From: Elusimicrobiota bacterium
Lineage (GTDB): Bacteria > Elusimicrobiota > Elusimicrobia > UBA1565
Assembly: GCA_043827405.1 (NCBI GenBank)
Contig: JBDRPD010000099.1
Location: 1 to 53,667 of the forward strand
Reading direction: 5' to 3'
DNA: 53,667 nt
In this document: one piece after another, positions 24,001-39,000 of the stretch
How positions within the stretch are numbered: the first letter of the stretch is position 1
How the letters are laid out: each line of letters starts with the position of its first letter
Made by a program: the position numbers

Positions 24001-27000
24001 TTCCCGGATCACTTTGGGCGAGATGATAGAGCTCTATATGCGCGACCACAGCGCCCGTTTGAAGGCCCGGACGCACGAGACCGACCGCAGCCTCAAGAAC
24101 CGGATTCTGCGCGGCTTCAGCCCCAATATCAAGCTGAGAAGCCTCACCCCGCACCATATCGAGCGCTACATCGCCAAGCGCTCCGGCCGCGTCAAGCCCG
24201 GCACGATCAACCGCGAACTGACCTTCCTGCAGGGGCTCTTCACCAAGGCCGTGCGCTGGGGATTCGCCGCGACCAATCCCCTTACCCTGATCAAGAAGCT
24301 CAAGGAAGAGCGCAAGCCCGAGCGCTTTCTGGCCCCGGCCCAAAAGGACAAGCTCCTGGCTTCCTGCCGCGACAGCCTAAAACCCCTGGTCGGCTTCGCC
24401 ATGAAGACCGGCATGCGGATGTCGGAGATAATCGAGCTCGAGTGGAAGAACGTCAACCTCGATAAGAACCGCGTCTACGCGGTCGGAACCAAGGCCCACA
24501 AGACCCGCGTGATCCCGATCTCCCCGGCCACCCGGGAGACGCTAAAGCGCCTGCCCAAGCGGAGCGACCGCGTCTTCACTCAGGATAGCGGCAAGCCCTG
24601 GATCGTGGCAACGCTCGGCAAGTGGTTCGTCCGCGCCGCCCGCAAGGCCCGGCTGCCCCAAGATTTCACGTTCCACGATTTACGGCACACCTTCGCCCGG
24701 GATCTCCTAGACCGCGGAGTAGATATCTACACCGTATCCAGGCTTTTGGGGCACAGTTCCCTGCGCGTGACCGAGAGATACCTCTCGCATAACATGCCCG
24801 GGGCCGAGGAGGCTATTGGCAAGTTGGACCAAAGTGTTGTAAAAAGTGTTGTCAGTCGTTATTCGGCGGCCTAGAAACCGCCGGATTGTCGTCGATAGGT
24901 GAGGTGCGTGAGCGGCTTAAACGGACGGTTTGCTAAACCGTTGTACGGGGTAAACCCGTACCGAGGGTTCGAATCCCTCCCTCACCGATCTTTTTCCTGC
25001 CATGAACCTCAACGAGAAGTTCGACGTACGCCCCGAGAAGGTTCGCGCGCTTAAAGAGCGCATCGTCCGGCTGCGAATAGACCTCAACGCGATAGCCGAA
25101 GGCTTCACCAAAGGCGGGGGGAAAGGCGGCCAGAAGGTCAACAAGACCTCCAACTGCGTCGTCCTGCGCTACCCGCCGCTGGAGCTCACCGTGCGCTGCG
25201 CCAAGGAGCGGCGCCGCACCGTCAACCGCTTCCTCGCCCTGCGCGAGCTCGTCGACCAAATAGAAATGCAGGTCTCACCCGCGACATCGCAGCGGCTCAA
25301 GGATGTAGAGAAGCTGCGCAAGAAAAAGAAGCGCAAGCGCCGCAATTCCTTAATGAAGCACGCCTAACTGCTTGCGTATCGCTTCGCATAGAGTATTCGC
25401 GAGCTCCTTCCGCTTCAAGCAGGAACAGGGATGGATATGGACTTAGTGGGGTGGTTGATTACCGGCCGGTCGTCGAGCATCAGCCGGTAGGCGTGCAGAA
25501 TATTCTTACGCAGCGACTTCAGCGTTTTCCCCTGACTGATCACGCCCGGGACCTCAACGAGCCGCCCGACGTACCGGCCTTCATCTTTCCAATATTCCAG
25601 TGTCATCCTAGCCATCCCTACTAGTATAGCCCTGAACGTAAACTTCAACAAGCAAACGATACCCTAAAATACGAACAAGCCCGGCCATTAGTTCCGTCCA
25701 ATAATTCCAATAAGTTGAAGGCCGGTACCGTTACTTATTTTAGTGGGCGACGGGCAGGGTGAGGTAGGGGAAAGCCGTGCGGGACATTATCTGGCGCAGC
25801 GGCGGGCCGACGGCGGTCAGCGCCTTGACCGTCTCGCGCCGGGCCTTCTCGGCGACGGTCTGGCCCTCGAGCCGCGCGACTTCATCGGCGAGCTGCTGCA
25901 GCGAGGTCCCGCCGGCCGCCGGCTTGGCGAGCTCCCGGCGCAGGTGGTCGGCGCGGTCCGAGTACTGCCGCGAGCCGAGCCGGACCTGGGTCTCGGCGCG
26001 CACGCTGTCGACTTCGATATGGCCCGGATCGGCTTCCCAGGTGCCGGTGCCGCCGGCGCCCACCAGGCCGCCCATCTCGTTGAGAACCCGGTCGACGGCC
26101 TGCGAGCCGGTGAGGTGGTCGACCTTGGCGTTGGGATAGGTGCCGGCGCGGCCGCGGACCGTCTCGACGAAGGTCTGCTTGACGCCGCCGTTGAAGGCGC
26201 CGAGGATGCGGCCCCGGGCGTCCTCGATGTCCTCGCCGGCGTAGCGCACGTAGCGCAGCAGGCTGCCCGTGCCGAAGTGGATCTTCCGGCGCTCGGTCTG
26301 CGGGCCCTTCTCATGCTGCCACTCACCGACCCGGGTGGCCGAATCGTTCTCCACGGCATCCGGGAACTGGCTCGGATCCATGTAGCGGTCCACCTTGTCG
26401 GGCAGCAGCTCGAAGATATCGAGGAAGTGCACGATCTGCCCCATGGCGCCGCGGCGCACGGTGGCGCCGCCGTCGGTGCGGCGCATGTAGACGCGGCCGA
26501 TATAGCCGTGCTGGTTCGGGTCGCGCCCGGTGATCAGCTCGATCGGCGTCTTGATGATGCCGCGCGGCGTCTCAAAGACGATATTCGCCCAGTTCCAGGG
26601 CATGTAGGCCCAGCGGCCGACAGCGCCGAGCTCGTCGGCCGCTTCGTCCAGGCGCTGCTGCAGGATCTTGCGGCCCAGCAGGACGGGCAGCTTGGTCTCC
26701 GGGTCGATGTAGCGCTTGAGCCGGTAGGTGGGGGACATCTTGTAGTCTTCCTGCTTCCACACCCGGCCGGACATGTCCTCGATCCACCACTTCTCCGAGA
26801 GCTTCTTGAGCTCCTGGAGGTCCTGGAAGATGCGCACCAGCGCGCCCTTGGAGTCGAGCTCGATGGCGTGGACTTCACCGCTGACCCAGCGCGCCGCGGC
26901 GGCGCCGAGGCCGCGGGAGAAATCGGACTTGCGGTCGCGGATCTCGGCGAGCGTGCCGTCGGACGCCAGGCCCCATTCGAGATCCGTGGTGAGGTGGAAG

Positions 27001-36000: not shown

Positions 36001-39000
36001 GTGCGGTAGGCCCGCAAGGCCTCGACGAACTTGCCGGCCTGCTCGCCGAGCTTGGTGAACAGGCCCTCGTTCTCCTTGTTGTCGGCGATCTTCTTGCGCA
36101 CGTCCTGCTCCCACTCGTCGCCGCGCGCGCTGTTCTTCTTCGCGTCTTCGAGCGCCCGGCGGCTGCGCTCCCGCTGGGCGTCGATATCCTTAAGCTTGCC
36201 GTCGACGAGGGCCTTCATCCCCTCGATCGCGTTTTGCGCCGCCTGAATGACATTGAGGCTGTAGGACAGGTCCATGACCATGGCCAGGCGGGAGAAGTTC
36301 TTGCGGAACTCCGTCATGTCCCGCTCGTCGCGGCGGCGGCGCAGAGACGCGTCGCGCATGCGGTCGGCCATGGCCAGCAGCTGGCCGGCGGCTTCGCGCT
36401 CCGCCAGCTCGGCCTGGGCCTTGGCTTTGAGGCGCTCGATACGCTCCGTGTGCTCGGCCAGCGCGCGCTCCCGCGGGGTTCCCGCCAGCGGCGGCTTGCG
36501 CTCAGGGCCCGCCGAGCCGCCGTCGCGGCCCGTCAGCAGATCCTGCAGGCCGCGCTGCAGACGCTCGAGCCGGGCGCGTTCGATCTCGTTGGTCTCGGTA
36601 TAGCCCAAAGAGGAGTTGGCGGGCCCGCCCGCGATCCCGTCGTACATGTCCAGAAGGTCCTTGAGCGCCCCGAGCTCCTTTTCGTCGCCCTTATTAAGCA
36701 GATCCGCGCGCTGCGAGAGCTTGCGCAGCAGGTAGAGCCGGTCGCGATTGCGCTGCAGCGCGGCGAGGTCGCTGGAAAGCTGCTGCTCGAGCCGCTCGCG
36801 GCTGCTGTCGTCGCTGCCGCGCAGGCCGGCCAGCGCCTGCTCGCCGCGGTGGATCGCGAGCTCACGGCTGAGCTCGTTTTCGCGGCTGTGGGTGGCGGCG
36901 AGCTCCCGTTGAAACAAGCCCGCCCCGCCCGCCGGGGCGGCCTGAGGAAGGACCGCCGCGGCGGACGCTTTAAAGGGGGACTGCGCGCCGCTCGTCTGCG
37001 CGCGGTCCGCGCGCGGCTGGAGAACCTGCTCCGCGCGGGTCCGCACAGCGCGCGCTTGCGACTCCAAAGTCTCCGCCGTGGGTTCCGCCGTCAGGCCCAG
37101 ATGCTCCCGGAGCTGCGGCAGCTCCGCCCGCGCCGCGGCCTCCGCATCCCGGGAGCCTTGCGCAAACTGCAGGTGGCGGCTGATCCAGCCCGCGAGCTCG
37201 CGGTCCGAGCCCTGCGGCACGCCCAGCGTCCGCAGCTTGCTGGCCTGAAAGCGCAGCCAGGAGGGCTGCGGGGAGCCGGCGGCCAGACCGGCGGCCAGCG
37301 CGGCATAGGAGTAGCCCCGAAGGACCTGGTGCAGCTCGCGGCCCGTGCGGGTCAAAGTCTCCCGCTCGGCAGCCGCGGCGGGATCCTTGGCCAGCCGCAT
37401 CCAGCTGGTACGGACCCCGGCGGCCTGCTTCCAAAGCTCGGACTCCATGACGCCGCCCTGCTCTGCGGCGGTACGGGAGGCCTCCAGGTACGGCATCAGC
37501 TCCGCCGCCACCGTATTGGGGCCTACCGCCCGTCCGGCGCTGATCCGGGGCGCCTGGAATGACGGCTGGGAGACGTTCACCGCGGCCGCGGGAAGGCCGC
37601 CGTCGAATACTCCGGGAGCGGCCTGGAGGCGCGAGACGCCGCGGGCCAGCTTGCCCGCCGTGCCCGGCACCGCGGCCGTCGCCGCCGCGCCCGGATAGGC
37701 GGGCGCCGCGGCGGCGCCGAAAGCGCGGACCGCGGCGAAAGCCGGTGCTTGAGCGGAAAGGGCGAAGGAAAGAGCTAGGGCGAGGGGCTGGCGCAAGCTA
37801 TTTTTCTGCAGGCGTTTTAGCATCCTTTCTAGACCCTAGGTCCTAGAGCTGCGGGCCATTAGATCTATTGAAAGTATACCTACAGGGCCCGTAATTAGTA
37901 GAGTCAGAAGGCCTATTTTTAATTAGGCCCAAGGACCTATACGAAAATGGGCCGGTCAGACTTAAGATTTTAAGATAGCCGCACCTTCCCAGTATACGGC
38001 CCCTCAACGACTAAGAGTCTTAAGTCTGTCACTTCGGGGGACAAAGACCAGCCGTTCGGCGGTCTAGGCGGCAGGCCGGAGCGCCTCAAGGCGGGCCGCA
38101 AAAACGTCTAGCGACTTCATTCGTGCGGCCGGATCCGCTTCCATAGCCTCGGCCAGAAGCGGCCCCATGCCGGGAGGAAGATTCTCCGATTTCAGGTCAT
38201 CATCCGGCGGGGCGCCGGTGAAGAGGAAATGAGTACAGGCGCTCGCCGAGTATACGTCATGTACGGCGCCGGCCTTGCGCACATCGGCTTCAGGCGGAAG
38301 ATACTCATTGGCTTTAAACTCGTTGAGGATACGCGATATGCCGAAGTCCAGCAGCTTCACATGGCCGGAAGAGGAGATATGAATATTATCCGGCGACAGC
38401 GTACCGTGGTACAAGCCGGCCTGGTGAGCAGCGCCGAGAGCCGCGCATACCGCGTCCATAATCGCAAAGGCCTGTGCGGGAGGAATTAAGCCGAGCTCCT
38501 TAACCAGCTCCTGCGCCGTCCGGCCCCGGAGCGATTCCCGCACAAGAAACAGGCCCTGCGGCAGATCAAGGACCTCGTAGATATCCACGATATTCGGATG
38601 GCTCAGCGCCGCGATCCGCTGCGCGGTCTCCACATAGGCCTGGCTGACTTTGACGGGCGCCGCCATCGATTCCTTCAGCACTTTCTGAATAATGACCGCG
38701 CGTTCAAGCGAGTGATCCGTCGCATGCCACAACTGACTGCCGCTGCCGTATTCGATAATATCGCCGCACTCATACTTGCCGGCGATGTATTCCTCACCGC
38801 CGATATCCACGCCCATGGCGCCTTTCTTCGCACCGGCCTCCGGCTGCGGCGCCGGGCGCGCCGCGGCAGCCCTGCGGCGCCACAGGAAAGACGTCAGCAG
38901 GAACCCTCCGATTCCCACCACCAAGCCGCCGAGCACGAACGGCAGCGGAGAGCCGCCCGCCTCCTCCCCGGACCGCGCGCTGGGCAAAGACCAGGCCACC

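What a model noticed while it worked through the whole genome (the two positions that open the first line are those of the whole stretch)
25740..37823. Giant single-chain outer-membrane protein: beta-barrel followed by tandem TolC-type repeats
g03427 (4027 aa) and its paralog g00673 (5435 aa), both without Pfam hits, contain a predicted beta-barrel (about residues 1500-1850) followed by six ~190-aa hairpin-plus-helix repeats, i.e. three TolC protomers' worth in one polypeptide. This would be a single-chain, asymmetric TolC-like channel fused to a second barrel, near-universal in the order.
Evidence so far: Model of 1401-2528: ~20 consecutive beta-strands then TolC-type repeats; Foldseek SilC/TolC E 1.8e-6, 36 OMF hits. 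Model of 1880-3060 (pTM 0.66) shows six periodic repeats; the middle third matches a whole OMF protomer, Z 18.7, 313 aa; Pfam OEP in repeats 2 and 6 (E 6e-3, 6e-4; call 208) and in homolog P0548 (E 2e-6; call 84). 79 full-length homologs at 32-56% identity, named ones all Elusimicrobiota. Barrel segment in 52 of 61 order genomes, 1 of 139 other class members. Search 196 lists nothing.
(Added by a program. Inside this text positions count along the whole contig: contig position 1 is position 1 of the stretch shown here. "Call 12" and the like, gene names such as g00115 and contig names such as C1 are that model's own, and its searches are not shown. The text may have been shortened before it was handed on; [...] marks where a part breaks off. 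The agent that wrote the report below was given it as the finding of a first reader that could run no searches.)

Follow-up and report, generated by a model that had tools for sequence, protein, structure and literature searches.

The report
One-chain TolC duct with second barrel
A 4,027-residue protein of uncultured groundwater bacteria is predicted to build a whole TolC-type outer-membrane channel from one chain instead of three, with one wall strand replaced by a helix and a second barrel attached, which points to an undescribed kind of export machine.

Summary
The gene is real (4,027 aa; relatives in 85 of 101 order genomes). Residues 1885-3008 hold six TolC half-repeats. AlphaFold folds them as one compact body (pLDDT 80, pTM 0.78). 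Each third matches an OMF profile separately. In the model, monomeric porins align across the hairpins from repeat 1 to repeat 6, so these form one barrel. In repeat 4 the second strand is replaced by a conserved amphipathic helix, also seen in distant Elusimicrobiota and an Omnitrophota protein: an 11-strand barrel with a seam. The upstream ~18-strand sheet resembles outer-membrane barrels, but its closure and family are not shown. There are two paralog clades. The long form (C22) has inner-membrane-type helices at both ends and follows a conserved cluster with a SecA-like SF2 ATPase (15 of 16 loci). The window's short form lacks both. Best reading: the outer-membrane duct of a dedicated macromolecule export machine; the function is inferred. 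No paper describing it was found. This scan noted the six-repeat architecture before on other genomes; the short notes I could see do not mention the seam.

The parts
25740..37823 (-). Whole gene, 4027 aa (short-form clade). The start may be residue 1 (ATG) or residue 10 (database entry P0002 is 4018 aa)
37734..37823 (-). Probable Sec signal peptide (basic start, hydrophobic core, A-x-A), residues ~1-30
   Evidence: read from the sequence; no signal-peptide predictor was run
33363..36626 (-). Conserved N-terminal region, probably helical and periplasmic, residues ~400-1487; no family or PDB match
   Evidence: 32-48% mean identity per 200 residues; no PDB match better than E 0.003; helical character read from the sequence, not modelled
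34872..35672 (-). N-terminal repeat A, residues ~718-984
   Evidence: hhalign A5 vs A6: probability 98.7%, E 2e-16, 256 columns
33882..34805 (-). N-terminal repeat B, residues ~1007-1314
32238..33362 (-). Outer-membrane-type beta region, residues 1488-1862, about 18 membrane strands plus one extra hairpin; closure and family not shown
   Evidence: model pLDDT 67, pTM 0.46; VIA best Z 12.8 (CdiB), tied within 1 Z with FhaC, a second CdiB and CymA; neighbouring strands co-vary
31038..32171 (-). TolC unit 1 (repeats 1+2), residues 1885-2262
   Evidence: hhalign vs OMF profile 96.9%, E 1.5e-10; model
29934..30992 (-). TolC unit 2 (repeats 3+4), residues 2278-2630
   Evidence: VIA Z 15.8-18.2 to 26 OMF entries; hhalign 93.3%
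30210..30293 (-). Repeat-4 seam: short strand (2511-2521), near-invariant Pro2522, then an amphipathic helix (2523-2538) where OMFs have a second strand
28800..29906 (-). TolC unit 3 (repeats 5+6), residues 2640-3008
   Evidence: hhalign 73.2%, E 3e-5, against 0.1-1.0% for 12 control windows; Pfam OEP in 8 of 15 repeat-6 segments at E<=0.1
25740..28799 (-). Conserved C-terminal region, residues 3009-4027, no family or PDB match; no C-terminal membrane anchor in this form

Best explanation
The protein is exported with a signal peptide (inferred) and inserts two beta structures into the outer membrane. Its six repeats fold, within one chain, into a TolC-like duct: a periplasmic alpha-helical tube topped by a small barrel (predicted, about 0.8). 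The three units are different sequences, so the duct is asymmetric. In repeat 4 an amphipathic helix takes the place of a strand and leaves a seam in the barrel wall (predicted, about 0.75), which most likely works as a lateral gate to the bilayer (inferred, about 0.35). The long N- and C-terminal regions form a periplasmic scaffold in place of a separate adaptor protein; in the long paralog they end in inner-membrane-type helices, so one chain could span the envelope (inferred). The most likely job is the outer-membrane exit of a dedicated macromolecule (protein) export machine, powered by the co-encoded membrane-anchored SecA-like SF2 ATPase, with the 450-1100-aa products of the cluster as cargo or further parts (inferred, about 0.4). 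The window's gene is an old duplicate without the anchors, which probably works with the same machine or with another motor.
For: Architecture. Model pLDDT 80.4, pTM 0.78 over 1124 residues. Monomeric porins align over model residues ~45-1010: VhGalP Z 10.4, rmsd 3.8, 160 of 210; Tsx Z 9.7; KdgM Z 8.9, rmsd 3.6. Each third matches an OMF profile. The six-repeat profile retrieves three ordinary OMFs at E 4e-5 to 1e-3 among 1.84 billion proteins. ESM Atlas nearest clusters are OEP/TolC at 0.97 (recognition 2267, just under the 2300 mark). Seam. Helical hydrophobic moment is 0.59 in that slot against 0.08-0.35 for the five true second strands; P2522 is 96%, R2528 86% and R2532 92% conserved in 140 rows; the Pro plus hydrophobic helix is kept in P0117, P0127 and the Omnitrophota P0126. 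System. The ATPase and the 1100-aa gene each lie within 20 kb upstream in 15 of 16 long-form loci. Giant and ATPase are both found in 80, and both missing in 8, of 101 order genomes. A C-terminal membrane helix is present in 19 of 24 long-clade and 0 of 15 short-clade proteins. The ATPase keeps SF2 motifs in the order of the genome's own SecA.
Against: All structure is predicted, and AlphaFold may close the ring by likeness to TolC. The repeat-4 helix has pLDDT under 50. Co-variation did not detect closure (repeat 1 to repeat 6, rank 761 of 812), though two inter-repeat positive controls also failed (ranks 564 and 332). Repeats 4 and 5 have no Pfam OEP hit in 15 homologs each, and repeat 1 in only 1 of 15. 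The ATPase's likeness to SecA is weak by score (pairwise E 2e-3 and 1.5e-4); Pfam SecA_DEAD does not hit it, and its best PDB hits are DEAD-box helicases (E 0.003). Coupling is loose: 8 genomes have the ATPase without a detected giant and 5 the reverse; in G028, G069 and G099 the giant is absent from the DNA next to the ATPase gene. The window's gene is not in the cluster. No cargo has been identified.
Confidence: 0.45

Rival explanations
1. Same fold, but the protein is an envelope bridge: it tethers the two membranes and moves lipids, lipoproteins or glycolipids through the helical tube, releasing them sideways at the repeat-4 seam. No ATPase partner is required.
For: Conserved seam. Long form with membrane helices at both ends. 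Five genomes have the giant but no detected ATPase, including G006 (97% complete). Lateral gates are known in BamA, LptD and FadL (recalled).
Against: Patchy distribution: not found in 333 of 338 genomes outside the order, and missing from some near-complete order genomes, so it is not a core envelope function. No lipid-transfer groove protein was among the 50 listed matches of the beta region.
Confidence: 0.2
2. Polysaccharide export: the ~18-strand barrel is an AlgE/PelB/PgaA-like porin and the duct carries a polymer.
For: PelB (Z 10.1), PgaA-type (Z 10.0) and AlgE (Z 9.0, rmsd 7.4) are among the VIA rows. Unchecked notes of this scan report single-chain TolC genes beside glucan synthases in Omnitrophota. 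An O-antigen-ligase-TPR gene lies in the cluster in 2 of 16 loci.
Against: These matches rank below or tie with unrelated barrels. No synthase or glycosyltransferase was found among the recurrent neighbours that were scanned.
Confidence: 0.12
3. The repeats do not close within one chain. They form an open trough, or several chains join into a larger ring, possibly continuous with the 18-strand sheet.
For: One strand is missing. The beta region did not fold as a confident closed barrel (pTM 0.46). No closing couplings were seen.
Against: Exactly six repeats in TolC register, at fixed spacing, across the family; high pTM; whole-porin matches across the repeats.
Confidence: 0.12
4. It is the translocon for the genome's PorV-associated (type IX-like) surface proteins.
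For: The genome has PorV-like genes (5 matches). Earlier notes describe such cargo (unchecked).
Against: PorV-like genes occur in 216 of 401 phylum genomes, including 49 of 50 in family f5, where the giant's barrel was found in 0 of 50.
Confidence: 0.04

Closest known systems
Outer membrane factors: TolC, OprM, OprN, TOprJ1, VceC, CusC, SilC, CmeC, MtrE (Pfam PF02321)
   Same: Repeat of two strands plus long helices, two repeats per unit, six repeats per channel (PMC8277102 section 6.2).
   Different: Known OMFs are trimers of one ~450-aa chain with 12 strands (PMC8277102). Here three divergent units lie in one chain (unit 1 vs 3 hhalign 0.2%), with 11 strands plus a helix, inside 3,500-5,900-aa proteins. 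No adaptor or RND/ABC/MFS pump gene was found among the scanned neighbours.
Multi-barrel outer-membrane proteins (Solan et al. 2021, PMC8346858)
   Same: Two outer-membrane beta structures in one chain; lineage-restricted.
   Different: That paper's main text has 0 occurrences of 'TolC' or 'Elusimicrobia'. Here one of the two barrels is assembled from OMF hairpins spread over 960 residues.
Giant Omnitrophota proteins with divergent SecA DEAD domains (West-Roberts et al., bioRxiv 10.1101/2023.11.21.568195)
   Same: Giant secreted or membrane proteins, a SecA-like ATPase next to membrane helices, proposed role in export. An Omnitrophota protein shares repeats 2-6.
   Different: That preprint has 0 occurrences of 'TolC', 'efflux' or 'porin'. 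Here ATPase and duct are separate genes.
Single-chain 14-18-strand outer-membrane barrels (CdiB/FhaC, CymA, PelB, PgaA, AlgE, BamA); strand counts recalled
   Same: General fold of residues 1488-1862 (Z 9-13).
   Different: rmsd 4.4-7.4 and 6-11% identity for the barrels named; none stands above the others; no Pfam or PDB sequence match.

Membership tests
OMF/TolC (PF02321) | Repeat of beta-hairpin, long helix and split pseudo-continuous helix | tested here: met
   Five repeats in full, repeat 4 without its second strand; Pfam OEP over the cut-off in 2 of 15 repeat-2 and 1 of 15 repeat-3 segments, and in P0117
OMF/TolC (PF02321) | Two repeats form a protomer fold | tested here: met
   Unit 2 by structure, Z 18.2, rmsd 2.9. 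Units 1 and 3 by profile only, 96.9% and 73.2%, covering the end of the odd repeat and the whole even repeat
OMF/TolC (PF02321) | Trimer of separate ~450-aa chains | tested here: not met
   Three divergent units in one ORF in all 68 aligned homolog segments
OMF/TolC (PF02321) | Closed 12-stranded barrel | tested here: not met
   11 strands plus a helix; one barrel in the model; closure not shown experimentally
OMF/TolC (PF02321) | Works with a periplasmic adaptor and an RND/ABC/MFS pump | tested here: inconclusive
   None among 23 window neighbours or the C22 and recurrent neighbours scanned; partners could be encoded elsewhere
OMF/TolC (PF02321) | Outer-membrane location and channel activity | not testable with these tools
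   needs experiment
Multi-barrel outer-membrane proteins | Two closed barrels in one chain | tested here: inconclusive
   First barrel: pTM 0.46, closure not shown
SecA (for the C22 neighbour, 3018 aa) | SF2 motifs in SecA order, with an insertion after the DEAD motif | tested here: met
   Alignment against the genome's SecA; Pfam ResIII E 1e-4, and DEAD E 2e-3 in a homolog
SecA (for the C22 neighbour, 3018 aa) | Match to Pfam SecA_DEAD | tested here: inconclusive
   No match on C22 at E<=1 (only 5 candidates were scored); pairwise scores are weak
Type IX translocon SprA | SprA family domain; co-occurrence with PorV | tested here: inconclusive
   The PF14349 search rang in no control genome; the distribution does not follow PorV

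The most novel reading that the evidence does not exclude
A new class of secretion or cell-contact machine in free-living Elusimicrobiota, related to modules in Omnitrophota giants. One polypeptide is anchored in the inner membrane at both ends and inserts a laterally gated, single-chain TolC duct plus a second barrel into the outer membrane. A membrane-anchored SecA-like ATPase drives proteins with hydrophobic hairpins through it, possibly into neighbouring cells.
Probability: 0.25. Interest if true: 0.92.

Novelty: new variant of a known kind. Interest (0 to 1): 0.78.

Why it matters
OMF channels are described as trimers of one gene product (PMC8277102). A natural single-chain version allows three different faces, and here one face has traded a strand for a helix. 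That would be a TolC with a side door, and a ready scaffold for testing asymmetry and gating in these channels. The long paralog raises a biogenesis problem: how does a chain with inner-membrane anchors at both ends insert barrels into the outer membrane? The seam is shared with an Omnitrophota giant, which suggests one origin for the module and a possible route by which such giants cross the envelope.

Tried and rejected
Complex prediction of unit 1 with unit 3 gave no verdict (scores 0.05, 0.55, 0.07; mark 0.32) and is not used as evidence either way. Sequence and profile searches of the PDB with the repeats, the barrel and the four flank alignments gave nothing meaningful. Pfam on 68 barrel segments found no family in more than 1 member. 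ESM Atlas on the barrel gave weak, generic porin-like clusters (0.90-0.91, low recognition). Self-BLAST shows no internal repeat, and repeats 1, 4 and 5 do not match OMF half-profiles on their own. Co-variation (134 rows, effective 89) lacked power for ring closure. Two word-index searches with the Omnitrophota protein P0126 found only itself or nothing, so the spread in Omnitrophota was not measured. The SprA search was uninformative. No RNA holder was listed; the two RNA runs laid gave only 18-36-base pieces, so expression is untested, and a second DNA run covered all 30 bins in short pieces, none spanning the gene. A lipid-transfer groove reading of the beta region was considered; none appeared in the 50 listed rows, which does not exclude it. 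One wrong-strand frame (from L205) entered the ATPase alignment (1 of 16 rows) and A4 (1 of 14); A3, used for the genome counts, does not contain it. The TM labels were too strict and were redone. Literature searches that returned no description of this protein or of a single-chain TolC: (open-licence library only).
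Full report
OBSERVATION. The window (G000 contig C99) has an open frame at 25740-37823 (-) of 4027 aa. The whole protein has no useful Pfam or NCBIfam match. A paralog on C22 is 37.5% identical over residues 301-3605 and 33% over 3606-4012. Residues 1480-3060 found relatives in 85 of 101 order genomes (50 of 59 high-quality ones). A word-index search gave 41 proteins, one of them the window's own; those with an organism name were all Elusimicrobiota. 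Identity to 26 relatives runs at 27-50% per 200 residues from residue 401 to 4000, so this is one conserved gene and not a fusion artefact.

SIX TOLC REPEATS. An alignment of 68 segments (residues 1885-3008) folded at pLDDT 80.4 and pTM 0.78. The model shows hairpins at protein residues 1930-1968, 2120-2149, 2318-2357, 2673-2704 and 2869-2889, each followed by long helices. At repeat 4 it shows a single short strand (2516-2520) and a helix. Foldseek gave 30 matches at E<=0.001, and the rows listed down to E 0.0045 are all OMFs. VIA aligned whole OMF protomers to the middle third: Z 15.8-18.2, rmsd 2.6-3.4 for 26 entries. Twelve flank windows scored 0.1-1.0% against an OMF half-repeat profile. 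For units 1 and 3 the match covers the last helix of the odd repeat and all of the even repeat, in register. Per-repeat Pfam OEP hits at E<=0.1 in 15 homologs each were 1, 5, 6, 0, 0 and 8 for repeats 1-6. The six-repeat profile, run over 1.84 billion representatives, returned 104 proteins by the tool's count, among them three ordinary OMFs.

CLOSURE. I had no coordinates, but the wide VIA search gave an indirect test. Monomeric porins matched model residues ~45-1010, from the first strand of repeat 1 to the last of repeat 6: VhGalP Z 10.4, rmsd 3.8, 160 of 210 residues; Tsx Z 9.7; KdgM Z 8.9; FapF Z 7.9 (that these are 12-stranded is recalled). The hairpins therefore form one barrel in the model. 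This is still a prediction and may lean on likeness to TolC. Co-variation neither confirmed nor excluded closure.

THE SEAM. In 140 rows the repeat-4 slot reads strand, Glu/Asp-Pro, then an amphipathic helix. Pro is 96% conserved and two arginines 86% and 92%; the helical moment is 0.59 against 0.08-0.35 for the five true second strands. A ten-residue strand up and a 16-residue helix down would each span about 24 A, so I infer a helical stave in the barrel wall; a helix lying along the membrane surface is the alternative. Its pLDDT is under 50. The Pro plus hydrophobic helix is retained in the distant homologs P0117 and P0127 (about 23% identity). It is also retained in P0126, a partial 4593-aa protein labelled Omnitrophota, which matches repeats 2-6 collinearly (domain E 1e-8, 9e-4, 4e-7).

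FIRST BARREL. Residues 1488-1862 gave 20 strand elements, pLDDT 67, pTM 0.46. Foldseek and VIA returned outer-membrane or organellar barrels, with no leader (best Z 12.8, rmsd 4.5, 219 aligned, covering mainly model residues 114-362). Thirteen of 17 neighbouring strand pairs ranked in the top 40 of 812 by co-variation, which supports an antiparallel meander; first-to-last pairing ranked 645. I count about 18 membrane strands. Whether the sheet closes alone is open.

FLANKS. The N-terminal region holds two ~290-residue repeats (718-984 and 1007-1314; 98.7%, E 2e-16). Neither flank matches the PDB; neither was folded.

TWO FORMS. A quick tree of 46 proteins separates a short clade (15 rows, including this gene, SH-aLRT 99) from a long clade (24 rows, including the C22 paralog, 99), with the f8-type proteins far outside (midpoint root, long branches flagged). 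A C-terminal membrane helix is present in 19 of 24 long-clade and 0 of 15 short-clade proteins; many long forms also have N-terminal hydrophobic helices. The tail (Pro-rich linker, helix, basic residues) also resembles sortase-type sorting signals (recalled), so cleavage is possible.

NEIGHBOURS. I fetched 20 kb upstream of 16 long-form genes chosen for long contigs. Fifteen have the 1100-aa gene and 15 the 2,400-3,100-aa ATPase gene (one seen only through); 11 have the 880-aa gene and 10 a Y1-transposase/DnaA-HTH gene. None of 6 short-form loci (the window included) has this cluster. The window's gene follows three TPR-Ser/Thr kinase genes. The ATPase has a probable signal peptide, a hydrophobic middle and SF2 motifs in the order of the genome's own SecA, with ~1000 residues inserted after the DEAD-like motif; scores against SecA are weak, so I call it SecA-like only. 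It was found in 88 of 101 order genomes. Against the giant: both in 80, neither in 8, ATPase only in 8, giant only in 5. Of seven ATPase-only genomes whose flanking DNA was fetched, G028, G069 and G099 had 20-40 kb without the giant; G010 had 6 kb up to the contig end without it; G009 and G050 ended at contig edges (G304 was a positive control). The link is real but not strict. The genome also has 8 ordinary OMF genes, so the giant does not replace them.

DISTRIBUTION. In a sample of 400 other phylum genomes the barrel profile hit 52 of 62 in the order and 5 of 338 outside it (f8 4/4, f11 1/1); it was not found in f4 (122), f5 (50) or f16 (79). PorV-like genes are far wider (216 of 401), which argues against a type IX-like translocon role.

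MECHANISM. Shown by tools: one gene, six OMF-type repeats in register, the conserved seam, two clades, synteny of the long form. Predicted: a closed intrachain duct, and a second barrel. Inferred: outer-membrane location, lateral gating, envelope spanning, coupling to the ATPase, protein cargo. I put the export-machine reading at 0.45, the lipid bridge at 0.2, polysaccharide export at 0.12, no intrachain ring at 0.12 and the PorV translocon at 0.04.

LITERATURE SEEN. PMC8277102: passages and the first part of section 6.2 (only the first 300,000 characters are held), which describes OMFs as trimers with 12 strands. PMC8346858: abstract and term search. bioRxiv 10.1101/2023.11.21.568195: passages. 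PMC11573180: passages; it names Elusimicrobiota as rich in huge, uncharacterised proteins. Other papers were seen as search listings only. No supplement was read; those of the preprint might list OEP domains. Nine searches found no description of this protein or of a single-chain TolC; subscription journals are mostly not covered. NCBI labels one distant homolog 'TolC family protein'.

EARLIER NOTES OF THIS SCAN. The same architecture was noted in other Elusimicrobiota genomes, and six-repeat modules in Omnitrophota. These are unchecked notes and are not counted as support. I had the fold, seam and anchor results before reading them. They supplied the polysaccharide rival; the notes supplied the PorV rival.

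VERDICT. Observation confirmed; interpretation largely right for the duct, open for the first barrel, and true of the C22 cluster only for the paralog. It works like a TolC duct but fails the family's trimer and 12-strand criteria: a new variant of a known kind, possibly part of a new secretion machine. Interest 0.78.

Noticed in passing
window 3-9851 (-): A second giant ORF (at least 3283 aa, runs off the contig) with a similar signal-peptide-like start and no Pfam hit.
   Followed up: no
window 38064-43965 (-): Three tandem TPR plus Ser/Thr kinase genes directly upstream on the same strand; a related kinase gene also lies near the short-form gene in G072 and G006.
   Followed up: partly
window ~12000-24900: Lower-GC stretch (mostly 0.51-0.54, against 0.65-0.70 in the giant gene) with several ORFs of no family, ending in a tyrosine integrase at 23837-24874; probably an island.
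   Followed up: no
window 11661-13052 (+): Ankyrin repeats fused to a caspase (Peptidase_C14) domain.
   Followed up: no
L003:879-1781 (G000 C22): A Y1/REP tyrosine-transposase domain fused to a DnaA-type helix-turn-helix, conserved in the cluster upstream of the long giant in 10 of 16 loci; probably domesticated.
   Followed up: partly
G000 C22 64493-73127: Several 440-880-aa Gly-rich proteins with an N-terminal membrane helix; two end in a hydrophobic hairpin and one in a Cys-rich tail; no Pfam family for those scanned. Candidate cargo or inner parts.
   Followed up: partly
L245-L247, L249 (G350, G225, G191): In family f8 the SecA-like ATPase domain sits inside 4,200-6,100-aa giants, away from the TolC giant, as described for Omnitrophota giants.
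   Followed up: partly
P0126 (4593 aa, Omnitrophota label, partial): After the TolC repeats it continues for ~3,600 residues with no Pfam hit, including many beta-rich repeats by eye.
   Followed up: no
G000 whole genome: At least 15 stop-to-stop frames of 2,790 aa or more, and 5 PorV-like matches.
   Followed up: no
L225, L226, L228, L231, L233: A dCache-HAMP-PAS histidine kinase, a LysM-FecR protein and a glucodextranase-domain protein recur downstream of the long form.
   Followed up: partly
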